This document shows, in pieces, positions 892 through 22,767 of a stretch of DNA of 43,003 nucleotides. The DNA comes from a virus (Duplodnaviria > Heunggongvirae > Uroviricota > Caudoviricetes): IMG/VR virus record IMGVR_UViG_641522624_000003. The stretch is one strand, 5' to 3'. Both the position numbers and the translations under genes were made by a program. How positions within the stretch are numbered: the stretch's first letter is position 1; each line of letters starts with the position of its first letter. The notes under the pieces were generated by a model. It saw only the letters and a list, made by a program, of their open reading frames with translations. It was not told where the DNA came from and did no database searches.

Positions 892-981
892 GGAGAGATG
901 CCGGAGCGGCTGAACGGACCGGTCTCGAAAACCGGAGTGGGGGCAACTCCACCGGGGGTTCAAATCCCCCTCTCTCCGCCA
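892..981 (+). tRNA. serU: tRNA-Ser, anticodon CGA (serU-type), probable prophage integration target
   Basis: Cloverleaf read directly: acceptor GGAGAGA/TCTCTCC, anticodon stem CCGGT/ACCGG with loop CTCGAAA (anticodon CGA), long variable arm typical of tRNA-Ser, T-loop GGTTCAAATCC, 3' GCCA. Confidence 0.85.
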
Positions 982-2320: not shown

Positions 2321-4762
2321 TTAAAAATCAGCCTGACTCGGGATCAGTTTTTGCCAGATAGCTGAAACGTATTTTGCCTGGTAACGAGCGTCATCAAGTG
2401 CATTATGGCGCTCACCTTCGAATGGAATAGCCGTTCTGGCATCGAAGTCTATGGCTTTCCCCAGCTCAACGATTGTGCGTACATCGCGATCGTTGTAGTA
2501 ACGCCACGGGCAGGGGATCCCCTGCCGTTCGTATGAACGGCGCAAAATCGTGTTGTCGAAGTTGGCTCCATTTCCCCAAACCTGAACAAAAAATTCACCG
2601 GAGTTTTCGTCGATAAATTCCCGCAATTGTAACAGTGCATCATCTAACGGGATTTCATCGGTCATAATGGCAGATTGCGCTTCGCGTGATTGCTTAAGCC
2701 ACCATTTAATGGTGTCCCGATCAATGACTCCGCCAGCAGTTTCCAGATCGATAGTCTTACTAAATTCCGGTCCCATATCTCCGGTTTGCGGATCGAAAAA
2801 TATTGCACCTATTGAGATGATCGGGGCATCAGGATTTTTTCCCATGGTTTCAAGGTCGATCATTAGATGGTCACACGTCCTGCTGGTGGATGTGATTTCG
2901 TGATGACCGTTCACCTTAATTGGGTGATCTGCCGTCTCGCCAGTTTTATTATCGCTGGCGTGATGCTGATTGCCGCCAGGGTTCTCCTTGTGTGGATGTT
3001 CAGCGCCTTCCATTTCCTCCGGATCATTTTCCTGAACTTCAACCTGATTCTCTTCATCGAATGTTTCCTGGTATGTTGCGTCGCCCATCACCGCGCCACA
3101 ATCAGGGCAGTTGCCGCCACCGCTCTGACCGCAGGCGGTGCAGACTTTTTCCGGTTCCTGTTGCGCTACTGGTTCGGATTGTTTCGTTTCTGGCTCGTTT
3201 TGTAACGCATTTGGGCTGTTTTGTTCCGCTTTTTGGTCGTTCCGTTCCGATTCATGCTGGTTCTGGTTCACAGAATCGCGAGTCTGGATCCCCTTGACCC
3301 ATTTCGGATCATTAGGGTCGCTAATCCCCTCAACAAATTCACCACGCGATACAGCAAGTAACTTATCGGCGTCAGGCTGGCTGATATTGGCTGCCTGCAT
3401 AATTTTGTTTACTTCGTCAGCGGTGACTTTTACTTGGTTAGCGGAACTCACCTGCGACTGAGCATCCAGCGACTGCGCGTTCTGGCCATGTTCAGTTGTA
3501 TCCGGTTCCATTGTTTCAGTTGTTGCCTGTTCACCTGCCATTGCGTCAGATGGTTGTGGTTTTTCTTCTTCTGTTTCACGCTCAGTAACCACCTCGCGGT
3601 TAATTTCTTCCAGGATATCTTTTTCCGGCGTATGCCGGGCAGCTGTGAGAGTTTCCTTGCTGGGGTTCTCGTGATCAGTTTCCGTCAAATAGGCGTTGAT
3701 ATACCCCTGAAGGCGTCCCGGGTAGTGATAAAATTCAGGGTGTGCGCTTCGGATAAGTGCAAAAATAGCGGCGCGGGAATAGTCCAGAATACCCGGGGTT
3801 GCACGAAGTGCTGCGGACCATTCTTTGAACGGACTTTCTTTGTTCAGGACTACTTCTTTTGCGCGACGATAAACGCTGCCCGGAATTTCATAAATATTAA
3901 AATCCATCGGAAGTGTGGCTGCTGCAATCTCCACATCCAGTGTGTCGAGGGTGTGTACTAAATTCGGATTGCGATCGGTTTTGTTCCCACCGCCAGCATT
4001 AGCACCGGAAGCCGTGCGGGTGATGCGTGAAACACGATTTCCTTTCATCCACTCTTTTGTCAGCAGACCCCGATCAGTGTAGTCAGCGTCCAGGTATGCT
4101 TCGAAAAAAGCAGTTATTAGTCCCAGGTCTGAATTACCAGGATTAGGGAAAACTTTGTCAGTGTCACGAACCAGTTTGTGGAGGTCGCGAATCTCCAGCG
4201 AGTCGAGCAGACTGGTTTTATGCGAAATAGCCAGGGCAGTAACAGCCGGTAGTTCTTCAGCCCGTGCAATGTGTAATGCCTGGAGTTCGTCGCGTGAAAC
4301 GTGCGTTACTGGTTTTTCGCTGCCGTGTTGAGCAAGCCAACGAATGGGCAGTTCCTGACCGGAGACAGGCAGAAGCATGCTCTCCTCAATCTCAGTCATG
4401 TCTTCGCCGTTGATGTTGGTATTGTCAGTGCTGGCTGGTTTGTCCTGAACAGAGGGGGAAGGGCCGATAAATGTCATTGTGATGCCATCTTTCCCGCCTT
4501 TTTCATAGCGGTTGCAGAATTCAGTATCAAACACGCCTTCTGGCGGAAGGTCGTCAACAACGGGCAAATTGACGCGGACGGGTTTTTTAAAGTCGTCTTC
4601 ATCATAATCGTTGTCATCCATTGCGGTAATGCAGCGGGAGATTGCAACAGATAATTTTTTTGCTGTAGTCCAGTAAAAACCACCTTTAATTCCCAGGCGT
4701 TTTCTTACTTTGTCATTTTTTGCTTCGCAATATAGTGCAAATTCTTCTTTATCAGTGCTCAT
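2321..4762 (-). CDS. Large phage exonuclease: RecE-N-terminal-like region, central Cys4 zinc ribbon, C-terminal DnaQ-like (DEDDh) 3'-5' exonuclease domain
   Basis: 813-aa ORF. N-terminal segment ([10 protein letters not shown]...[21 protein letters not shown]...) matches my memory of the RecE N-terminal region; [16 protein letters not shown] zinc ribbon; C-terminal [10 protein letters not shown]...WGNGANFD...[10 protein letters not shown] looks like the DnaQ Exo I/II/III motifs. Confidence 0.6.
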
Positions 4763-5401: not shown

Positions 5402-5459
5402 AAAAAGGGCGGCAGAGCAGTCACGGAGTAAAACTGATACCGCCAAACGTCACCAGAAA
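5402..5459 (-). ncRNA. dicF: DicF small regulatory RNA
   Basis: Minus-strand sequence TTTCTGGTGACGTTTGGCGGTATCAGTTTTACTCCGTGACTGCTCTGCCGCCCTTTTT matches my memory of DicF including its terminal hairpin and U-tail; located between ydfC and dicB. Confidence 0.8.
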
Positions 5460-7770: not shown

Positions 7771-8782
7771 AAAGGTGAAAACCGGCAGTTCATCCAGTAA
7801 GTCTGTATTGACCTGGCTTGCTGATATGTGCGGTGCCGATTTGTGTGCATACCCGTCTGTATCTGCACTGGCAGAAGTAACGGAACTAAACAAAAAGACT
7901 GTGCAGGACAGCTTACGACACCTGATGGAGATTGGGTTAATTGTTGATACCGGTGAGAGAAAAGGCAGAACAAAGCAAATTGTGGTGTACCGACTTATCG
8001 GTGTAGAAGAAAGTGTTGCCGAGCCTGAATACACCCAAAAACGGGAGTCTTTAAAGGTGGGTAAAATTGGTGCTGTTAATAAAAACAGTACCGAAAATGG
8101 TTATGTTTCAGCACAAAACAGACCCAAAAACGGAACTCTTAGCTGCATGGAAAATAACCAAAGACACCCAAATTTTCCATCAAAGACACCCAAAAACGGA
8201 TCACGGAACCCAAAGGAACCCAAAGATCTAAACCCCACACATAACGCACGCGAGAGTGCTCCGACCAGTGAGCAGGAAGTTTTGTCGTTACAGGCAGCAC
8301 CCCTTGTATTCCTGGATGGCCTGAGCGAACCCATCGGAAAATTTCCGATGACCGATAGCTGGTATCCGTCACGGGATTTTCGACGACGGGCTGCGTTGTG
8401 GGGGATGGCTTTGCCGGAGACAGAATTTACACCTGCTGAACTTGCCGCCTTCCGGGACTACTGGGCAGCGGAGGGGAAAGTGTTTACTCAGATTCAGTGG
8501 GAGCAGAAATTCGCCCGTCACGTAAATCACGTCAGGGCGCAGGTTAAACCAGTCAGCAAGGGGGTAAACCATGCAGCAGCACCAGGTGGCACCGCATCAC
8601 GGGCAGTTCAGGAAATTCGGGCAGCACGTGAGCAGTGGGAACGTGAAAACGGATTTATCAGCGACGGAAACGGTCTGGAAGCTGTGGGAACTCATGGGGG
8701 AGGTTTATTCGAACCGCTGGACCCAGAAGAACGGGGCCGCACCTTCGAAGCTCTGGATTGCACAGATTGGCGCGATGACTGA
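7742..8782 (+). CDS. Replication initiator (O-like): N-terminal HTH domain, C-terminal DnaT-like domain
   Basis: Start at MSIDALRWAKK within track ORF 7667..8782; HTH segment SVSALAEVTELNKKTVQDSLRHLMEIGLI; iteron-like repeats lie inside the gene; C-terminal region FTPAELAAFRDYWAAEGKVF resembles DnaT-like domains. Confidence 0.6.
   Translation: MSIDALRWAKKVKTGSSSSKSVLTWLADMCGADLCAYPSVSALAEVTELNKKTVQDSLRHLMEIGLIVDTGERKGRTKQIVVYRLIGVEESVAEPEYTQKRESLKVGKIGAVNKNSTENGYVSAQNRPKNGTLSCMENNQRHPNFPSKTPKNGSRNPKEPKDLNPTHNARESAPTSEQEVLSLQAAPLVFLDGLSEPIGKFPMTDSWYPSRDFRRRAALWGMALPETEFTPAELAAFRDYWAAEGKVFTQIQWEQKFARHVNHVRAQVKPVSKGVNHAAAPGGTASRAVQEIRAAREQWERENGFISDGNGLEAVGTHGGGLFEPLDPEERGRTFEALDCTDWRDD
8030..8226. 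repeat. Iteron-like repeats (ACCCAAA core, about 6 copies; tandem GAACCCAAAG x2), putative replication origin inside the initiator gene
   Basis: Direct repeats at about 8031-8044, 8120-8134, 8162-8172, 8183-8200, 8206-8215 and 8216-8225. Confidence 0.5.
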
Positions 8783-9236
8783 GCAGCAAATCCGACAGGT
8801 CTGCCGCCAGTGCATGGACCGCTGCCGGGCGGGTGAAACATGGCCTCCGGACCTGGCTGAGTTTGTGGCGCTGATTTCAGAAAGCGGGGCCAATCCATTT
8901 GGCCTGACGGTGGATGCTGTGATGGAGGAGTACCGCCGCTGGCGTGATGAGTCCTGGCGATATGACGGAAGCGACAAATATCCGTGGCCTCAGCCTGTGC
9001 TGTACCACATCTGCCTCGAAATGCGTACCAGAGGGATTGAGCGCCAGATGACGCAGGGTGAGTTAAAACGACTTGCGGAACGGCAACTGACGAAATGGGC
9101 AAAGCATGTTGGTAACGGGATGAGTGTTCCGCCAGTGCGACGACAACTGGAAGGGGCGAAACACCCGCAAGGGCCAACGCCAATTGAACGGCTGAAACAG
9201 GAATACGAACGCCGGAAGGCAGCTGGTTTTATTTGA
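8571..9236 (+). CDS. Replication protein P-like (helicase-loader family, lambda P C-terminal-like)
   Basis: 221-aa ORF with strong SD (AAGGGGG) 5 nt before ATG 8571; C-terminal region (PPDLAEFVAL...YPWPQPVLYHIC...MTQGELKRLAERQL) parallels recalled lambda P motifs; no Walker A motif. Confidence 0.5.
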   Translation: MQQHQVAPHHGQFRKFGQHVSSGNVKTDLSATETVWKLWELMGEVYSNRWTQKNGAAPSKLWIAQIGAMTEQQIRQVCRQCMDRCRAGETWPPDLAEFVALISESGANPFGLTVDAVMEEYRRWRDESWRYDGSDKYPWPQPVLYHICLEMRTRGIERQMTQGELKRLAERQLTKWAKHVGNGMSVPPVRRQLEGAKHPQGPTPIERLKQEYERRKAAGFI

Positions 9237-9269
9237 ATCTGAGAAACGATTTTGTCGGAGGAAATTTTA

Positions 9270-10040
9270 ATGGAAACCGTATTTGACGCACTGAAAGCAA
9301 TGGGAAAAACCACATCGGTAGAACTGGCCGCGCGACTTGATATCAGTCGTGAAGAGGTTCTCAACGAGCTGTGGGAACTCAAAAGAAATGGCGTCGTTGA
9401 TAAAACTGGTCACACCTGGTTTCTGGCTGGCGAAGGTGAATCCCGGGTAACCGAAGAGCGGCCAGTAAAATCTGAAGCACAGGATATGCTGACCGGAGAG
9501 GTCGAACAAAAAGTTACCGCAGACATGATGATTGAGTTTATCGGTCAGGATGGTGCTAAAACGTGTGAGGAACTGGCGGGTAAGTTCGGCGTCAGTACTC
9601 GCAAGGTTGCCTCCACGCTGGCGGTGGTAACCGCAATGGGGCGGCTGGCACGCGTTAATCAGAACGGTAAATTTCGTTACTGCATGCCGGGCGATAATTT
9701 ACCAGCAGAGCCGAAAGCCGCGCTGGTAACGGAAAGTGATGGTAAGGCCTTTCCTCAGCCAGCAGGTGCTGCGTTACCAGTCCGGGAAGCCGCAACACAG
9801 GAAGAAATTAAAACAGAAACTGTGGCGGACATTGTGCAGCCGTTGCCATCGTTTACCGAAACGCAAGCAGATGAGCTGATTTTTCCGTCCCTTCGCAGGG
9901 CAAACCTGGCGCTGCGCAGGGCGAAAAGTGATGTTCAGAGGTGGGAGCGAGTCTGCGCCGCGCTGCGGGAGCTGAACAAGCACCGGGATATTGTTCGACA
10001 GATTACTGATTCTTCCCGCCGTGTTGTATCGGAAAAGTGA
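9270..10040 (+). CDS. Hypothetical phage protein with two winged-helix-like segments
   Basis: Track ORF 9252..10040; ATG 9270 is preceded by a GGAGG SD; two HTH-like stretches ([29 protein letters not shown] and [30 protein letters not shown]). Confidence 0.45.
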
Positions 10041-10055
10041 TTGCCGGAGGCGCTT

Positions 10056-10448
10056 ATGGCAAAAGTATTTACACCAGAAGAGCGGGAAGAAGTGAAGGCG
10101 CGCATTGTGGAATTCGTGCGCCTGAGCGGACGAGAAACTTTTCGACAACTGGCAGATAAAACGGGTGTCAGTAAGACCGCTATTCGTCGTTTATCTGGTG
10201 CGCTTGCGGCCAGTGGTGATGTCTGGCTCTCTGGTTGCGGGGTATTTCCATCAGAGCAGGCGTATCGCGTATGGCGTAAGACACCGGAGAAGGCTGCTGA
10301 CCCGACACTGATTCGAAAGTTACCTGACGGAGAAATACGTCGTTACAACAGACGGCAGAACATAATTTGTCGTGAGTGCCGCCAGAGCGAAGTTATGCAG
10401 CGTGTGCTGGCGTTCTATCGGGGAAACTTTCAGGAGGTGATGGAGTGA
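10056..10448 (+). CDS. Hypothetical wHTH-like protein
   Basis: Track ORF 10041..10448; ATG 10056 with GGAGG SD; HTH-like RETFRQLADKTGVSKTAIRRLSGALAASG; CxxC pair near the C-terminus. Confidence 0.4.
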   Translation: MAKVFTPEEREEVKARIVEFVRLSGRETFRQLADKTGVSKTAIRRLSGALAASGDVWLSGCGVFPSEQAYRVWRKTPEKAADPTLIRKLPDGEIRRYNRRQNIICRECRQSEVMQRVLAFYRGNFQEVME

Positions 10449-10741
10449 GGGTCAGAGTTTATATTGCCGGTCCAATGACGGGATATGAAAATTTCAACCG
10501 TGAGGCGTTTCACAAGGCGGAAGAGGAACTGAAACGGGAAGGGCATACCGTCTTAAACCCGGCAGTACTTCCGGACGGGCTGACACAGCCGCACTACATG
10601 GATATTTGCATGGCAATGATTCGTTGTGTGGATGCGATTTACATGCTGAATGGCTGGCAGCGGTCAGCGGGCGCTAAGGCAGAGCTGGCACTGGCGGAGA
10701 AACTGGGGCATGCAGTGATTTATCAGGAGGTGGCTCAATGA
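10445..10741 (+). CDS. DUF4406-like (nucleoside 2-deoxyribosyltransferase-like fold) protein
   Basis: GTG start overlapping the upstream stop (GTGATGGAGTGA) with an AGGAGG SD; product VYIAGPMTGYENF...GW.RS.GA.AE.A.A.K.GH.V matches my recollection of the DUF4406 pattern. Confidence 0.5.
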   Translation: MRVRVYIAGPMTGYENFNREAFHKAEEELKREGHTVLNPAVLPDGLTQPHYMDICMAMIRCVDAIYMLNGWQRSAGAKAELALAEKLGHAVIYQEVAQ

Positions 10742-11199
10742 GAGAGGTTAACTATGAGGCGCTTCGTGAGGCAGCACAAAACTATCAGTCGACGCTGGCG
10801 TGGTATCAGGCTATCCCGGACAGCCCAAATGCTGAACGGGATTGTGATGCGGCTCTTGCTGCGTTTAAGCGTCACATCCGTCATCGGGAAGCGGATATTA
10901 TCGCTGATTTGCTGGATGGACTGGAAGAAGCAAAATCACAACTCAAAGAGCAGCGTGAGTATTACGAAGGCGTTATCTCTGATGGGAGCAAGCGTATTGC
11001 TGAACTGGAAGCGCGGGAAGTTCAATTACCGACTCGCTACGACCTTCGATATGGACACCCGATAAATGCAGATGAGCGACATGTCATGATACCTAAAGAA
11101 AATGGCAGTTGGCTTTACCTGATTGACCTAGAACACGCATTACGCGTCTCTGGCATTCGCATCAAAGGAGAGGAGCATGGAAATAAAACCAGAGGATGA
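10738..11199 (+). CDS. Hypothetical phage protein
   Basis: 153-aa ORF translationally coupled (ATGA overlap) to the upstream gene; no recognisable domain. Confidence 0.4.
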   Translation: MREVNYEALREAAQNYQSTLAWYQAIPDSPNAERDCDAALAAFKRHIRHREADIIADLLDGLEEAKSQLKEQREYYEGVISDGSKRIAELEAREVQLPTRYDLRYGHPINADERHVMIPKENGSWLYLIDLEHALRVSGIRIKGEEHGNKTRG

Positions 11200-11533
11200 G
11201 TTAAGCAATATCGTTTTATTTCCGGTAAAAGAGGATGACCCTCGTAATCAGGTTAATTTTCTTTATGAGCCATCGGAAAGACCATATTGTCATCACGCCT
11301 CTGTCCGGGTTGACGAAAAAGAGCGTCAGGTCCGCTGTAAAATCTGCGGTGCAGTTGTGGAGCCATTTGACTGGATGCTCTCTGTGGCGAAAAGAGAAAC
11401 CAGACTGGCAGATGATGTAAGGCTCTTGCGTCAGGAGGAGCGGGAAAGGCGAAAAAATATAGAAAAGCTAATTCAGATTGAGCGTAACGCGAAAGCGCGG
11501 ATACGCAGGGCGACAAAATCCAGAACTGAATAA
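11177..11533 (+). CDS. Hypothetical protein with CxxC zinc-ribbon-like motif and basic C-terminal tail
   Basis: 118-aa ORF; C..H...CKICGAVVEP then an Arg/Lys-rich helix. Confidence 0.4.
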   Translation: MEIKPEDELSNIVLFPVKEDDPRNQVNFLYEPSERPYCHHASVRVDEKERQVRCKICGAVVEPFDWMLSVAKRETRLADDVRLLRQEERERRKNIEKLIQIERNAKARIRRATKSRTE

Positions 11534-11626
11534 TTAAATTTAGCTCTGTTAAAAATTTAATCCTTAACCGGAGGGATTTCTGCACCCTCAGAACATCAGG
11601 AGGCCGCCCGAAAGGGCGGTAGTTAA

Positions 11627-11809
11627 ATGCGAAAGTTTAAAATAATTATTGAAACGGGAATAGCCGGTGGAGATTTCGAGGATGAATTCGAAGTGGATGA
11701 TGATGCAACACCAGATGAAATACAGGATGAAGCTAAAGATATTTTCTTTAACTACTGCAATTACTCATACCACGAAATAAAAGACGAAGAGGAAGAACAA
11801 AATGGCTGA
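11627..11809 (+). CDS. Small highly acidic protein (60 aa)
   Basis: Track ORF; Asp/Glu-rich (FEDEFEVDDDATPDEIQDEAKD...KDEEEEQNG); preceded by a GAAA-tetraloop hairpin at about 11600-11618. Confidence 0.4.
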   Translation: MRKFKIIIETGIAGGDFEDEFEVDDDATPDEIQDEAKDIFFNYCNYSYHEIKDEEEEQNG

Positions 11810-11978
11810 TTTTGGTTCAACTAAATATAACGCCAGTTTTGAAGAATGGCATGAACTGTTAATGGATTATGCAGAGTTACGCGGTGGAAGTGCCGCTGAT
11901 GCTGAAGCATGGCGTGATGATTATGAAGCAGGGAAAACACCGGTCGAAGCATATTGTGATGAGTGGGGCGATGAATGA
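11802..11978 (+). CDS. Small acidic protein (58 aa)
   Basis: Hand-translated MADFGSTKYNASFEEWHELLMDYAELRGGSAADAEAWRDDYEAGKTPVEAYCDEWGDE; overlaps neighbours by ATGA-type junctions at both ends; below the ORF-track cutoff. Confidence 0.4.
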   Translation: MADFGSTKYNASFEEWHELLMDYAELRGGSAADAEAWRDDYEAGKTPVEAYCDEWGDE

Positions 11979-12490
11979 GCGAGATTAATTATCAGGAAGG
12001 GCATGAAAAGGCAGGGCAGGCAAAACCAGTGGCATGGCGATATCGCTACGTGAAAAAAGGCGTTACGGACTTTCAGGAGAATCTGTGGGTTGGTGACTGG
12101 AAATATGTACCGACAAAAGAGGATTGCAACGACAGGCCGAACTATGAAATTCAGGCCTTATTCGCTGCCCCGCCAGTTCCGGTGACATCAGAAGGACTGG
12201 TTAAAGCCGTGCGCTTTTATGAACAGGTAAAGCGTGAGAATCCACCAGTCGAAACAGGAGTATGGAAAGATGCTGTTGATTGGGTTCTCAAAGAGGCCTG
12301 CTGTGCTGTCATTCTGGGTAAAGCCGACAATCCATTAGCATCCAGTAACCAAGTTGGCGAATTAACAATGTGGGTTAAACGACTGGTCAGTCAACTGAAA
12401 AAAGCTAATCCAGACTGCAAATTACCGGAGAAGGCGATGGACTACCTGAAGCGGAACGAACTGATAAGCGCGGAGGATGTTTTGCGATGA
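11975..12490 (+). CDS. Hypothetical phage protein
   Basis: 171-aa track ORF, coupled to upstream and downstream ORFs. Confidence 0.4.
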   Translation: MSEINYQEGHEKAGQAKPVAWRYRYVKKGVTDFQENLWVGDWKYVPTKEDCNDRPNYEIQALFAAPPVPVTSEGLVKAVRFYEQVKRENPPVETGVWKDAVDWVLKEACCAVILGKADNPLASSNQVGELTMWVKRLVSQLKKANPDCKLPEKAMDYLKRNELISAEDVLR

Positions 12491-12822: not shown

Positions 12823-13033
12823 TTTTATATTGGCGAGGTGACGTGAGTTAAGTAGAATTGCTGCGGGTGCTTGAGGCTATCTGCCTCGGGCATGAACACC
12901 AACGGCAGATAGAGAAAAGCCCCAGTTAACATTACGCGTCCTGCAAGACGTTTAACATTAATCTGAGGCCCAATCTATGCTTCACAAACGTAGGTTAGCC
13001 TCTTACGTGCCGAAAGGCAAGGAGAAGCAGGCT

Positions 13034-13189
13034 ATGAAGCAGCAAAAGGCGATGTTAATCGCCCTGATCGTCATCTGTTTAACCGTCATAGTGACGGCAC
13101 TGGTAACGAGGAAAGACCTCTGCGAGGTACGAATCCGAACCGGCCAGACGGAGGTCGCTGTCTTCACAGCTTACGAACCTGAGGAGTAA
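13034..13189 (+). CDS. hok: Hok/Gef-family type I toxin (51 aa)
   Basis: Product MKQQKAMLIALIVICLTVIVTALVTRKDLCEVRIRTGQTEVAVFTAYEPEE carries the Hok/Gef signature (TM helix, conserved C, EVAAF-like motif), recalled as HokD/RelF-like; an in-frame upstream ATG at 12977 gives the 70-aa track ORF. Confidence 0.8.
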   Translation: MKQQKAMLIALIVICLTVIVTALVTRKDLCEVRIRTGQTEVAVFTAYEPEE

Positions 13190-16318: not shown

Positions 16319-16394
16319 GGCCCTTTAGCTCAGTGGTGAGAGCGAGCGACTCATAATCGCCAGGTCGCTGGTTCAAATCCAGCAAGGGCCACCA
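16319..16394 (+). tRNA. tRNA with anticodon CAU (Met or lysidine-dependent Ile2)
   Basis: 76-nt cloverleaf: acceptor GGCCCTT/AAGGGCC, D stem GCTC/GAGC, anticodon loop CTCATAA, T-loop GCTGG-TTCAAAT-CCAGC, 3' ACCA. Confidence 0.7.
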
Positions 16395-16395
16395 G

Positions 16396-16472
16396 CCGCC
16401 ACTAGCTCATCAGGAAAGAGCGTCAACCCTTTAAGTTGAGTGTGCGAGGTTCGAGTCCCCGGTGGCGGTCCA
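16396..16472 (+). tRNA. tRNA with atypical anticodon loop CCTTTAA (C at position 33); nominal anticodon UUU, Arg(UCU)-like backbone; isotype uncertain
   Basis: 77-nt cloverleaf: acceptor CCGCCAC/GTGGCGG, D stem GCTC/GAGC, anticodon stem TCAAC/GTTGA, T-loop CGAGG-TTCGAGT-CCCCG, 3' TCCA. Confidence 0.5.
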
Positions 16473-16474
16473 GT

Positions 16475-16550
<76 letters not shown>

Positions 16551-16553
16551 TAT

Positions 16554-16628
<75 letters not shown>

Positions 16629-21526: not shown

Positions 21527-22767
21527 TGTTCTTTTCGGGATTATTTCAACGAAAAAGTGATGCGCCGGTGACCACGCCAGCAGAGCTGGCGGATGCCATC
21601 GGGTTGTCTTACGACACCTATACCGGAAAGCAGATCAGCAGTCAGCGGGCCATGCGACTGACGGCGGTTTTTTCCTGCGTCAGAGTGCTGGCAGAGTCGG
21701 TCGGGATGTTGCCCTGCAATCTGTATCACCTGAACGGCAGCCTGAAACAGAGGGCCACCGGCGAACGTCTGCATAAGCTGATCTCCACGCATCCCAATGG
21801 CTATATGACGCCGCAGGAGTTCTGGGAGCTGGTGGTCACCTGTCTGTGCCTGAGGGGAAACTTTTACGCCTACAAAGTGAAAGCATTTGGCGAAGTGGCT
21901 GAACTGCTGCCCGTCGATCCCGGTTGTGTGGTACCGAAGCTTAACAGTCGCTGGGAGCCGGTCTATCAGGTCACATTCCCGGACGGTTCCACGGATGTAC
22001 TGAGCCAGGAAGATATCTGGCATGTGCGCACGCTGACGCTGGACGGTCTGGTGGGACTGAATCCCATCGCCTATGCCCGCGAGGCAATATCGCTGGCAGC
22101 AGCGACCGAAGAGCACGGGGCCAGACTGTTCAGCAATGGTGCGGTGACGTCCGGTGTGTTGCGTACAGAACAGACGCTGTCGGATCAGGCTTATGAGCGC
22201 CTGAAGAAAGATTTTGAGGAGCGTCACACCGGGCTTGGCAATGCTCACCGCCCGATGATCCTTGAGATGGGGCTGGACTGGAAGTCGATGGCGCTGAACG
22301 CCGAGGACAGCCAGTTCCTGGAAACCCGCAAGTTTCAGCTTGAAGAAATCTGTCGTCTGTTCCGGGTGCCGTTGCACATGGTGCAGAACACCGATCGCGC
22401 CACCTTCAACAATATCGAAGAGCTGGGGCTGGGATTTATCAACTATTCACTGGTGCCGTATCTGACCCGCATCGAACAGCGGATCAACACCGGACTGGTA
22501 CGAAAAAGTAAGCAGGGCGTTTATTACGCCAAATTTAACGCCGGGGCGTTACTGCGCGGGGATATGAAGTCCCGTTTTGAAGCCTACGCCACCGGGATCA
22601 ACTGGGGAATTTACTCTCCCAATGACTGCCGCGACCTGGAAGATATGAATCCGCGTCCCGGTGGGGATGTCTATCTCACACCGATGAACATGACCACGAA
22701 ACCCTCCGATGGCAGTAAAGCCGGTAAGCAGAAGGATAACGCCAATGCAGACGAAACAACGTCTTGA
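21526..22767 (+). CDS. Portal protein (HK97-like)
   Basis: 413-aa ORF between terminase and prohead protease; size and order consistent with an HK97-type portal. Confidence 0.75.
   Translation: MFFSGLFQRKSDAPVTTPAELADAIGLSYDTYTGKQISSQRAMRLTAVFSCVRVLAESVGMLPCNLYHLNGSLKQRATGERLHKLISTHPNGYMTPQEFWELVVTCLCLRGNFYAYKVKAFGEVAELLPVDPGCVVPKLNSRWEPVYQVTFPDGSTDVLSQEDIWHVRTLTLDGLVGLNPIAYAREAISLAAATEEHGARLFSNGAVTSGVLRTEQTLSDQAYERLKKDFEERHTGLGNAHRPMILEMGLDWKSMALNAEDSQFLETRKFQLEEICRLFRVPLHMVQNTDRATFNNIEELGLGFINYSLVPYLTRIEQRINTGLVRKSKQGVYYAKFNAGALLRGDMKSRFEAYATGINWGIYSPNDCRDLEDMNPRPGGDVYLTPMNMTTKPSDGSKAGKQKDNANADETTS

What the first reader, a model, noticed from the sequence alone, without database searches (positions are those of the whole stretch)
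11534..11978. Two very acidic small proteins preceded by a GAAA-tetraloop hairpin: possible DNA-mimic type proteins
ORFs 11627-11809 (60 aa) and 11802-11978 (58 aa) are strongly Asp/Glu-rich, a composition shared by DNA-mimic anti-restriction proteins. The first follows the only sizeable intergenic gap in the operon, which holds a stable hairpin (GCCGCCC-GAAA-GGGCGG) 8 nt before its start, suggesting processing or translational control.
Basis: inference. Interest (0 to 1): 0.4.

Follow-up and report, generated by a model that had tools for sequence, protein, structure and literature searches.

The report
Portable split ribosome-binding site before acidic genes
The hairpin most likely does not control or process the message but folds away 16 bases so that a strong ribosome-binding sequence sits the right distance from the start codon, as in two phage T4 genes; this same unannotated cassette recurs thousands of times in E. 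coli prophages in front of unrelated genes, while the two acidic proteins are real but of unknown function.

Summary
ORF A (11627-11809, 60 aa, net charge -15) and ORF B (11802-11978, 58 aa, net -12) are the two most acidic ORFs in the window. A -15.5 kcal/mol GAAA hairpin lies 7 nt before ORF A.

The DNA-mimic reading rests on composition alone. ORF A belongs to DUF7167 and ORF B to phrog_519. Both are conserved, uncharacterised phage families with generic small folds, and neither has a sequence or fold link to a known DNA mimic.

The hairpin is the informative part. A perfect AGGAGG abuts its 5' side, 23 nt from the AUG. With the hairpin folded the spacing is 7 nt. Divergent DUF7167 genes without the hairpin have GGAGG exactly 7 nt from the ATG. 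T4 gene 38, the textbook split ribosome-binding site, has the same layout.

The cassette is not specific to these genes. It precedes at least four unrelated gene families, always 6-9 nt from the start. Its 67-nt leader occurs 4,103 times in 2,603 of 5,426 complete E. coli genomes, never annotated and absent from Rfam.

Function is inferred, not shown. There is no covariation and no experiment.

The parts
11177..11533 (+). Upstream 118-aa zinc-ribbon-like ORF (phrog_1621). It is the last gene of the overlapping or abutting gene chain before the gap.
11534..11626 (+). 93-nt intergenic leader. It has an A/T-rich 5' part with stop codons close together, then the conserved cassette.
11556..11622 (+). 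Conserved 67-nt leader cassette: AATCCTTAACC, hairpin 1, AGAACATC, Shine-Dalgarno, hairpin 2, TA. Found at 4,103 places in 2,603 of 5,426 complete E. coli genomes and never annotated.
11561..11566 (+). Invariant UCCUUA, identical to the 3' end of 16S rRNA. UCCU pairs with AGGA of the Shine-Dalgarno sequence in the minimum-free-energy fold. This may be a weak cis anti-SD; its function is untested.
11571..11589 (+). Hairpin 1: GAGGG, a 9-nt loop, then CCCUC. It is conserved, shows no compensatory changes, and its role is unknown.
11598..11603 (+). Shine-Dalgarno AGGAGG. It pairs with the anti-SD at -10.3 kcal/mol, lies 23 nt from the AUG, and no start codon lies between it and the ATG at 11627, so it serves no other start.
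11604..11619 (+). Hairpin 2: CCGCCC-GAAA-GGGCGG, a GNRA tetraloop with 6 G-C pairs plus the G11603-U11620 wobble. Energy -15.5 kcal/mol; pairing probability about 1.
11620..11626 (+). 7-nt A/U-rich spacer UAGUUAA, which is the effective SD-to-AUG spacing once the hairpin is folded.
11627..11809 (+). ORF A: 60 aa, DUF7167 (PF23768) and phrog_1997. Predicted beta-beta-alpha-beta fold with an acidic C-terminal tail. Net charge -15.
11802..11978 (+). ORF B: 58 aa, phrog_519, no Pfam family. Predicted three-helix bundle, net charge -12. Its start overlaps the end of ORF A by 8 nt.
11975..12490 (+). 171-aa ORF (phrog_660) whose start overlaps the ORF B stop (ATGA). It is the third cistron of the overlapping module. 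In other prophages, relatives that share its C-terminal half sit directly behind the cassette.

Best explanation
The window is a Qin/Rac-like lambdoid prophage of E. coli. The finding lies in the early-right operon, downstream of the replication genes.

The hairpin is most likely the intervening stem-loop of a split (noncontiguous) ribosome-binding site. A perfect AGGAGG lies immediately 5' of a 16-nt GNRA hairpin, and 7 A/U-rich nt separate the hairpin from the AUG of ORF A. In linear sequence the Shine-Dalgarno element is 23 nt from the AUG, which is too far. With the hairpin folded the two come to a canonical 7 nt. This is how the initiation regions of T4 genes 38 and 25 work.

The gap breaks the chain of overlapping or closely abutting genes upstream. 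The cassette therefore probably gives ribosomes an independent, context-insulated entry point to a three-gene module whose start and stop codons overlap, an arrangement that suggests translational coupling: ORF A, then ORF B, then the 171-aa ORF.

The cassette, in a long form with a 67-nt leader or a short form with only the SD and hairpin, is a portable unit. It is repeated in thousands of prophages in front of unrelated genes, and its edges coincide with mosaic junctions. It probably also serves as a recombination linker.

ORF A (DUF7167) and ORF B (phrog_519) are genuine, independently distributed, strongly acidic small phage proteins. My best guess is that they are stoichiometric binders or inhibitors of host or defence proteins that handle nucleic acids. 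True DNA mimicry is only one such option.

Shown here: the anatomy, thermodynamics, conservation, copy number, spacing regularity and family membership. Inferred: that the hairpin enhances initiation, that the overlapping ORFs are translationally coupled, and everything about what the proteins do.
For: - SD and distance: AGGAGG at 11598-11603 is the only strong anti-SD partner within 40 nt of the ATG (-10.3 kcal/mol), and it ends 23 nt upstream. No ATG, GTG or TTG lies between it and 11627.
- Hairpin stability: -15.5 kcal/mol, pairing probability about 1, z-score -3.6.
- Natural control: nine loci carrying divergent DUF7167 genes without the hairpin have GGAGG + CTGAGTG (7 nt) + ATG.
- Direct comparison: T4 gene 38, fetched here, reads AAGGAG-[aggggc-UUCG-gcccuu]-cuaaau-AUG, at -16.7 kcal/mol. 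A review states that in gene 38 the hairpin reduces a 22-nt spacing to 5 nt, and in gene 25 reduces 27 nt to 11 nt, and that destabilising mutations lower initiation (PMC3014915). The term 'noncontiguous or split' is used in PMC7297116.
- Unbiased scan: a hairpin-only pattern scan gave 67 distinct contexts. The 6 nt immediately 5' of the hairpin are always SD-like (AGGAGG 53, GGGAGG 5, AGGAGA 4, CGGAGG 3, AGGAGT 1, AGGGGG 1). The start codons of at least four unrelated ORF families lie 6-9 nt after the stem (also 66-68).
- Tandem copies: two cassettes lie 1 kb apart in one operon in L167.
- Abundance: the 67-nt leader occurs at 4,103 places in 2,603 of 5,426 genomes.
- Module structure: ORF A/B overlap by 8 nt and ORF B/171-aa by 4 nt.
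- Proteins are real: DUF7167 scores 54.5 bits against a 24.4-bit cut-off. The family has 234 representative clusters, nearly all of 50-60 aa, with the conserved motif FEVxDDATxEEIE. The ORF B profile finds 132 proteins, and tblastn finds ORF B relatives in 198 phage records, including Vi01-like Salmonella phages.
Against: - No covariation. In 31 distinct leader variants 97% of cells pair, but there are no double compensatory changes and shuffles score the same. Single changes preserve pairing 8 times and break it 6 times, roughly as chance predicts. The copies are simply too similar to test the structure.
- The 3' arm AGGGCGGUA could itself pair with the anti-SD (-7.8 kcal/mol) at canonical distance if the stem were melted.
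- The SD is only partly accessible in the ensemble (unpaired probability 0.03-0.71), and the minimum-free-energy fold pairs AGGA with an upstream UCCU. Some repression is therefore possible.
- Three loci lack the SD and part of the 5' arm, consistent with a deletion of about 14 nt, yet keep an intact ORF A.
- There are no expression data of any kind.
- For the proteins there is no functional evidence at all.
Confidence: 0.55

Rival explanations
1. Repressive hairpin. The real Shine-Dalgarno element is the weak AGGGCGGU in the 3' arm, 6-7 nt from the AUG. The hairpin sequesters it, so ORF A is translationally silenced until something melts the stem.
For: The 3' arm pairs with the anti-SD at -7.8 kcal/mol at canonical spacing. 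Inhibitory initiation-region hairpins are common in phages, for example T4 e, soc, 49 and I-TevI (PMC3014915).
Against: Melting costs about 15.5 kcal/mol against a gain of 7.8. This model does not explain a perfect, orphan AGGAGG that always abuts the stem in 67 of 67 contexts. Hairpin-less homologues use GGAGG at 7 nt. The T4 gene 38 layout is the same and is an activating one.
Confidence: 0.12
2. The cassette is mainly a DNA-level recombination linker: a conserved boundary sequence at which lambdoid modules are exchanged by homologous recombination. On this view the RNA structure is incidental.
For: The edges are sharp. Sequence diverges immediately after GGGCGGTA and upstream of AATCC. At least 10 different upstream genes and at least 4 downstream gene families flank it. 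Copies are 94% identical per column regardless of flanks, with no covariation. It occurs up to 6 times per genome.
Against: The content is exactly what an initiation region needs: a perfect SD, a stable tetraloop hairpin and an A/U spacer. The start codon is always 6-9 nt away in every gene context. The two roles are not mutually exclusive.
Confidence: 0.15
3. RNA processing, stability or termination element. The hairpin would protect the 3' end of the upstream message, be an RNase site, or be a weak terminator.
For: It is a GC-rich stable hairpin in the only intergenic gap. Hairpin 1 could in principle stabilise a 5' end.
Against: There is no U-tract after the stem on either strand, and the terminator scan does not call it. 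No sigma-70 promoter is found in the gap. A stabiliser or terminator would not need an abutting SD or a fixed 6-9 nt distance to the start codon.
Confidence: 0.08
4. Operator for a trans-acting RNA-binding protein. The GCCC-GAAA-GGGC stem-loop resembles a lambda boxB (GNRA-like loop). A phage or host protein could bind all copies and co-regulate translation or antitermination of the accessory modules.
For: An identical hairpin precedes many unrelated genes, which would amount to a regulon-like arrangement. The loop is GAAA in 29 of 31 distinct variants. The resemblance to boxB is from my own knowledge.
Against: The boxA-like GCTCT lies about 55 nt upstream and is not conserved among variants. 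Variants with UAAA and GUCA loops exist. No candidate binding protein was identified.
Confidence: 0.07
5. This rival concerns the proteins only. ORF A and/or ORF B are DNA mimics that block restriction or other DNA-targeting defences.
For: The net charge per residue of ORF A (-0.25) is, by my own recollection, comparable to that of Ocr. Acidity is conserved across DUF7167. The predicted exposed faces of strand 2 and helix 1 carry runs of D/E; this is my reading of the sequence against the secondary structure. The genes lie in an early accessory region. Generic fold neighbours include small phage inhibitors such as T7 Gp2, T4 Dmd and some anti-CRISPRs.
Confidence: 0.15

Closest known systems
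Split (noncontiguous) ribosome-binding sites of phage T4 genes 38 and 25 (Gold 1988; Nivinskas et al. 1999; Malys and Nivinskas 2009, as cited in PMC3014915 and PMC7297116)
   Same: The SD abuts a stable GC-rich tetraloop hairpin, followed by a short A/U spacer and the AUG. The linear spacing is 22-27 nt in T4 and 23 nt here. It collapses to 5-11 nt in T4 and 7 nt here. Hairpin energy is -16.7 kcal/mol for gene 38 and -15.9 kcal/mol here in comparable contexts.
   Different: The loop is GAAA rather than UUCG. The host element is a temperate lambdoid prophage rather than a T-even phage. The T4 cases are each tied to one gene, whereas this is one near-identical cassette reused in front of at least 4 unrelated gene families and present thousands of times, often with a further conserved 45-nt leader and a second hairpin. 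Function here is not tested experimentally.
E. coli thrS split ribosome-binding site (Sacerdot et al. 1998, cited in PMC7297116)
   Same: A hairpin interrupts the elements of the ribosome-binding site.
   Different: In thrS the hairpin separates an upstream single-stranded enhancer from a normally spaced SD, and it is the operator for ThrRS autoregulation. Here the hairpin lies between the SD and the AUG, and no regulator is known.
Conserved boundary or linker sequences at mosaic junctions of lambdoid phages (my own knowledge of the modular-evolution literature; not retrieved here)
   Same: A short conserved intergenic sequence is flanked by unrelated modules, and sequence divergence begins abruptly at its edges.
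   Different: This one has an explicit initiation-region anatomy and a fixed distance to the start codon.
DNA-mimic and other acidic phage inhibitors (Ocr, ArdA, T7 Gp2, TifA)
   Different: There is no sequence or profile relationship. The fold similarity is at noise level for a 60-residue protein. No target is known.

Membership tests
Split / noncontiguous RBS (T4 gene 38/25 type) | The SD lies too far from the start codon in linear sequence (more than about 15 nt). | tested here: met
   AGGAGG ends at 11603 and the ATG begins at 11627, so 23 nt lie between them.
Split / noncontiguous RBS (T4 gene 38/25 type) | A stable local hairpin is wholly contained between the SD and the start codon. | tested here: met
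   -15.5 kcal/mol, pairing probability about 1, z-score -3.6.
Split / noncontiguous RBS (T4 gene 38/25 type) | With the hairpin folded, the SD-to-start spacing falls in the functional range (5-11 nt). | tested here: met
   7 nt here. 6-9 nt in every other gene context of the cassette. Hairpin-less homologues have GGAGG at 7 nt.
Split / noncontiguous RBS (T4 gene 38/25 type) | No competing SD at canonical distance. | tested here: inconclusive
   AGGGCGGUA in the 3' arm could pair at -7.8 kcal/mol but is locked in the stem.
Split / noncontiguous RBS (T4 gene 38/25 type) | The structure is supported by compensatory changes across relatives. | tested here: inconclusive
   31 distinct variants, 97% of cells paired, 0 double changes, no better than shuffles.
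Split / noncontiguous RBS (T4 gene 38/25 type) | Destabilising the stem lowers initiation and compensatory mutations restore it. | not testable with these tools
   This needs reporter fusions or toeprinting.
DUF7167 (Pfam PF23768) | Score above the Pfam gathering threshold. | tested here: met
   ORF A scores 54.5 bits against a 24.4-bit cut-off, E = 1.2e-14. It also matches phrog_1997 at E = 2.7e-30.
phrog_519 | Significant profile match. | tested here: met
   ORF B matches at E = 8.5e-23, to positions 76-137 of a 143-position profile. It has no Pfam family.
DNA-mimic anti-restriction proteins (Ocr, ArdA and the like) | Very high negative charge density. | tested here: met
   -0.25 per residue for ORF A and -0.21 for ORF B.
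DNA-mimic anti-restriction proteins (Ocr, ArdA and the like) | Sequence or profile membership of a known mimic family. | tested here: not met
   No Pfam hit other than DUF7167. No PDB sequence relative.
DNA-mimic anti-restriction proteins (Ocr, ArdA and the like) | Surface carboxylates arranged like the phosphates of B-DNA. | not testable with these tools
DNA-mimic anti-restriction proteins (Ocr, ArdA and the like) | Binds and inhibits a DNA-binding enzyme. | not testable with these tools
   This needs an experiment.
Intrinsic (Rho-independent) terminator | A GC-rich hairpin followed by a U-tract. | tested here: not met
   The stem is followed by UAGUUAAAUG. The scan does not call it on either strand.
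Lambda-type nut site (boxA + boxB) | A conserved boxA a few nt upstream of a boxB hairpin. | tested here: not met
   The only boxA-like string (GCTCT) lies about 55 nt upstream and varies among copies. The boxA and boxB consensus sequences are from my own knowledge.
T7 Gp2 RNA-polymerase inhibitor family | Profile similarity to Gp2. | tested here: not met
Any Rfam family | A covariance-model match. | tested here: not met
   Nothing reached gathering score. The best hit on 11450-11700 is SscA at E = 0.86, 18.5 bits against a 60-bit threshold.

The most novel reading that the evidence does not exclude
The 67-nt leader with its SD-GNRA-hairpin would be a previously undescribed, multi-copy, mobile cis-acting RNA cassette of enterobacterial lambdoid prophages. 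It would act as a portable, context-insulating split ribosome-binding site that also serves as the recombination joint for accessory-gene modules. The identical hairpins and the invariant UCCUUA would possibly allow one trans-acting factor to co-regulate all the modules it fronts. Separately, DUF7167 would be a broad new family of acidic phage inhibitors, with 234 representative clusters reaching from E. coli prophages to Enterococcus and Klebsiella phages.
Probability: 0.2. Interest if true: 0.65.

Novelty: new variant of a known kind. Interest (0 to 1): 0.45.

Why it matters
Split ribosome-binding sites are textbook curiosities known from a handful of individually evolved cases: T4 genes 38 and 25, and thrS.

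A single near-identical cassette that supplies this arrangement to many unrelated genes, in about half of all complete E. coli genomes, would have several consequences:
- It would show that the design is a reusable, naturally 'standardised' expression part.
- It would explain an abundant conserved non-coding element that neither RefSeq nor Rfam annotates.
- It would improve start-codon calling. Gene callers sometimes extend ORF A upstream through the cassette (84-93 aa versions).
- It would mark the junctions at which accessory modules are swapped.

For the two acidic proteins, the practical message is a caution: charge alone does not make a DNA mimic. They remain reasonable, cheap candidates for anti-defence screens.

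Tried and rejected
- Terminator: no U-tract and no scan hit.
- Promoter in the gap: no consensus hit. My lenient hexamer scan of 7 leader variants gave at most 8 of 12 matches, with poor -35 elements and no position conserved in all variants.
- nut site: boxA is not conserved.
- Rfam: no family.
- Covariation test of both hairpins: uninformative because the copies are too alike.
- Homology of ORF A to T7 Gp2: hhalign 0.3%.
- Link to TifA of Enterococcus phages: TifA is described as a two-domain protein with an SH3-like N-terminal domain, unlike ORF A's predicted single-domain fold.
- Pas sRNAs of E. coli prophages: the paper describes them as typically next to a holin/lysozyme (lysis) operon, and I did not pursue a link to this leader.
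- ORF A and ORF B as an obligate pair: rejected. 15 loci carry A without B. B relatives occur in 198 phage records against 35 for A, none of the latter from Salmonella phages.
- A conserved ORF A-exonuclease neighbourhood: seen in two phage groups but with unrelated exonuclease sizes and opposite gene order, so it is left as a lead only.
- My generic scan of the window for other split ribosome-binding sites was flawed. Its filter treated AAGG inside the hairpin as a canonical SD and so skipped ORF A itself. Its single hit at 22227(-) is not credible.
- Literature: no paper mentions DUF7167, and none holds the hairpin string in a relevant context.

Full report
**Context**

The window is an E. 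coli lambdoid prophage of the Qin/Rac type. It carries:
- a tRNA followed by an integrase-sized ORF on the minus strand at the left end (not scanned against any family);
- DicF RNA at 5407-5458(-);
- a rightward operon with a lambda-P-like gene (8571-9236), then DUF1627, DUF977, DUF4406, Ead/Ea22 and a 118-aa zinc-ribbon ORF (11177-11533);
- further downstream, sok/hok, DUF968 and a tRNA cluster.

In a 96%-identical region of another E. coli chromosome the same operon lies downstream of dicA and dicC.

The 1.4-kb stretch around the finding matches 2,790 of 5,426 complete E. coli genomes. RefSeq annotates both ORFs there, as a DUF7167 family protein and a hypothetical protein.

**Observation**

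| ORF | Length | D+E | Net charge |
|---|---|---|---|
| A (11627-11809) | 60 aa | 33% | -15 |
| B (11802-11978) | 58 aa | 28% | -12 |

They are the two most acidic of 144 ORFs of at least 50 aa in the window.

Genes from 8571 to 12490 overlap or abut, except for the 93-nt gap 11534-11626.

The hairpin CCGCCC-GAAA-GGGCGG (11604-11619, plus a G-U pair 11603/11620) folds at -15.5 kcal/mol. None of 200 shuffles folds as well, and the z-score is -3.6. It ends 7 nt before the ATG.

Directly 5' of the stem lies AGGAGG (11598-11603). It is the only strong anti-SD partner within 40 nt of the start (-10.3 kcal/mol), yet it is 23 nt from the ATG. No start codon lies between it and the ATG at 11627, so it serves no other start. 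If the 16-nt hairpin is looped out, the spacing becomes 7 nt.

**Comparative test using protein-anchored loci**

These loci were found through the protein, so they are unbiased with respect to the upstream sequence.
- Among 100 loci carrying ORF A, 88 have the SD-hairpin arrangement with an intact AGGAGG or GGGAGG. Only transitions occur in the stem.
- Nine loci with 61-75% identical DUF7167 genes have no hairpin. They read GGAGG-CTGAGTG-ATG, which is the same 7-nt spacing.
- Three loci lack the SD and part of the 5' arm, consistent with a deletion of about 14 nt.

**Precedent**

I fetched the T4 gene 38 initiation region. It reads AAGGAG-[aggggc-UUCG-gcccuu]-cuaaau-AUG and folds at -16.7 kcal/mol. 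The window's region in a comparable context folds at -15.9 kcal/mol.

A T4 review states that in genes 38 and 25 an RNA structure between the SD and the AUG brings a 22-nt or 27-nt spacing down to 5 or 11 nt, and that destabilising it lowers initiation (PMC3014915). Such sites are called 'noncontiguous or split' (PMC7297116).

**The cassette is not specific to the acidic genes**

After removing duplicates it gave 67 distinct contexts.

The six bases 5' of the stem are always SD-like: AGGAGG 53, GGGAGG 5, AGGAGA 4, CGGAGG 3, AGGAGT 1, AGGGGG 1.

| Downstream ORF family | Spacer from stem to start |
|---|---|
| DUF7167 | 7 nt |
| 72-aa membrane-type protein (MKHYLEKNYPRK / MTTLFRKEYPRK) | 6 nt |
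| 123-189-aa proteins starting MTELTKEQ | 8-9 nt (ATG or GTG start) |
| 158-196-aa proteins starting MQEIKENI | 9 nt |

There are two forms:
- The long form has a conserved 67-nt leader: AATCCTTAACC, hairpin 1, AGAACATC, SD, hairpin 2. It follows at least 10 different upstream genes.
- The short form has the upstream stop codon 4 nt before the SD.

One operon (L167) carries both forms 1 kb apart.

The 67-nt leader occurs at 4,103 places in 2,603 of 5,426 complete E. coli genomes, up to six per genome, with no annotation under any listed match. It matches no Rfam family. I found no paper that holds its sequence in a relevant context.

Sequence similarity stops abruptly after GGGCGGTA and upstream of the leader, so the cassette coincides with mosaic junctions.

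**Limits of the RNA evidence**

The copies are 94% identical per column. There are no compensatory double changes. Single changes keep pairing 8 times and break it 6 times, and shuffles score as well as the real alignment. The structure therefore rests on thermodynamics and on the regular spacing, not on covariation.

The 3' arm could be a weak SD (-7.8 kcal/mol) if melted. The real SD is only partly open in the ensemble. The minimum-free-energy fold pairs AGGA with an invariant upstream UCCU, part of UCCUUA, which equals the 3' end of 16S rRNA. Some negative control therefore cannot be excluded.

No terminator, promoter or nut-like features hold up.

**The proteins**

*ORF A*
- It passes the DUF7167 threshold.
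- A profile search of 1.84 billion representatives finds 234 clusters at E of 0.001 or better. Nearly all are stand-alone proteins of 50-60 aa.
- The family shares the motif FEVxDDATxEEIE. Acidity is conserved, with a mean net charge of -10.7.
- Relatives occur in Klebsiella Guernseyvirinae and Enterococcus Herelleviridae phages, next to exonuclease genes.
- AlphaFold gives a beta-beta-alpha-beta fold with an acidic C-terminal helix (pLDDT 79).
- hhalign against Gp2 gives a probability of 0.3%.

*ORF B*
- It has no Pfam family but matches phrog_519.
- Its profile finds 132 proteins.
- tblastn finds relatives in 198 phage records, many of them Vi01-like Salmonella and Klebsiella phages.

*Both*
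- Neither has a solved relative nor a PADLOC or NCBIfam match.
- The two co-occur only in the E. coli-type module: 88 loci carry both, and 15 carry A without B.
- A natural deletion fuses the first four codons of ORF A to ORF B behind the same cassette (L121).
- In other prophages the cassette directly fronts relatives of the 171-aa downstream ORF.
- ORF A and ORF B therefore look like optional inserts in an accessory slot, not a dedicated pair.

**Verdict**

The DNA-mimic idea remains a composition-based guess. It is compatible with the data but has no specific support. TifA shows that acidic phage inhibitors need not mimic DNA.

The hairpin is most plausibly the looped-out element of a split ribosome-binding site that launches an overlapping three-gene module. 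It belongs to a very abundant, unannotated, portable cassette.

I rate this a new variant of a known kind. It is moderately interesting for translation-initiation and phage-mosaicism specialists. It is low-risk to test and is not a conceptual surprise.

Noticed in passing
window 12865-13189: A complete sok/hok type I toxin-antitoxin locus lies in the next gap of the same operon. The Rfam sok match scores 113 bits at 12865-13039, and the Hok ORF is at 12977-13189.
   Followed up: no
window 5407-5458 (-): DicF antisense sRNA (Rfam, 76.7 bits). It supports the Qin/Rac-type identity of the prophage.
   Followed up: no
window 892-978 and 16319-16625: One long tRNA lies next to an integrase-sized ORF on the minus strand at the left end, which is probably the attachment site. 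A cluster of four tRNA genes lies downstream of the DUF968 gene.
   Followed up: no
window 11561-11566: An invariant UCCUUA in the leader is identical to the 3' terminus of 16S rRNA. UCCU pairs with AGGA of the SD in the minimum-free-energy fold, so it could be a weak cis anti-SD.
   Followed up: partly
L049, L065, L082 (about 40 nt upstream of ORF A): These variants read CCCTCAGGCCCGAAAGGGCGG. That is consistent with a deletion of about 14 nt that removes AGGAGG and half of the 5' arm while ORF A stays intact. They may be natural loss-of-RBS alleles useful as controls.
   Followed up: partly
L121 (minus strand, about 534): A natural in-frame deletion fuses MRKF of ORF A to ORF B (MRKFRKNKMADFG...) behind an intact cassette.
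   Followed up: no
L101 3001-4525; L103 3001-4525; L102 2471-3171: DUF7167 homologues overlap exonuclease genes in two unrelated phage groups. In Klebsiella Guernseyvirinae they lie upstream of a 454-aa exonuclease. In Enterococcus Kochikohdavirus they lie downstream of a 180-aa exonuclease. One record labels the 55-aa DUF7167 gene 'PD-(D/E)XK phosphodiesterase', which is probably a mis-transferred name.
   Followed up: partly
window 11975-12490 versus L116, L137, L141: The 171-aa ORF shares its C-terminal half (PEGLVKAVRFYEQVKRENPPVETG.WKDAVDWV) with proteins that have different N-termini and sit directly behind the cassette in other prophages. This indicates domain-level mosaicism.
   Followed up: no
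L003 (Collinsella sp. MAG contig JAIHTM010000290.1); PP818812.1 (Actinobacillus phage vB_Apl-pPE4): E. coli-type sequence, with 97% and 95% identity to ORF A respectively, appears in a Collinsella (Actinobacteria) metagenome bin and in a phage record assigned to Actinobacillus. These are likely a mis-binning and a doubtful host assignment.
   Followed up: no
proteins P0003, P0004, P0005: In the roughly 40% of copies where the spacer is TAGTGAA instead of TAGTTAA, the in-frame stop before the ATG is lost. Gene callers then extend ORF A to 84-93 aa through the hairpin and leader. This is probably a mis-annotated start.
   Followed up: partly
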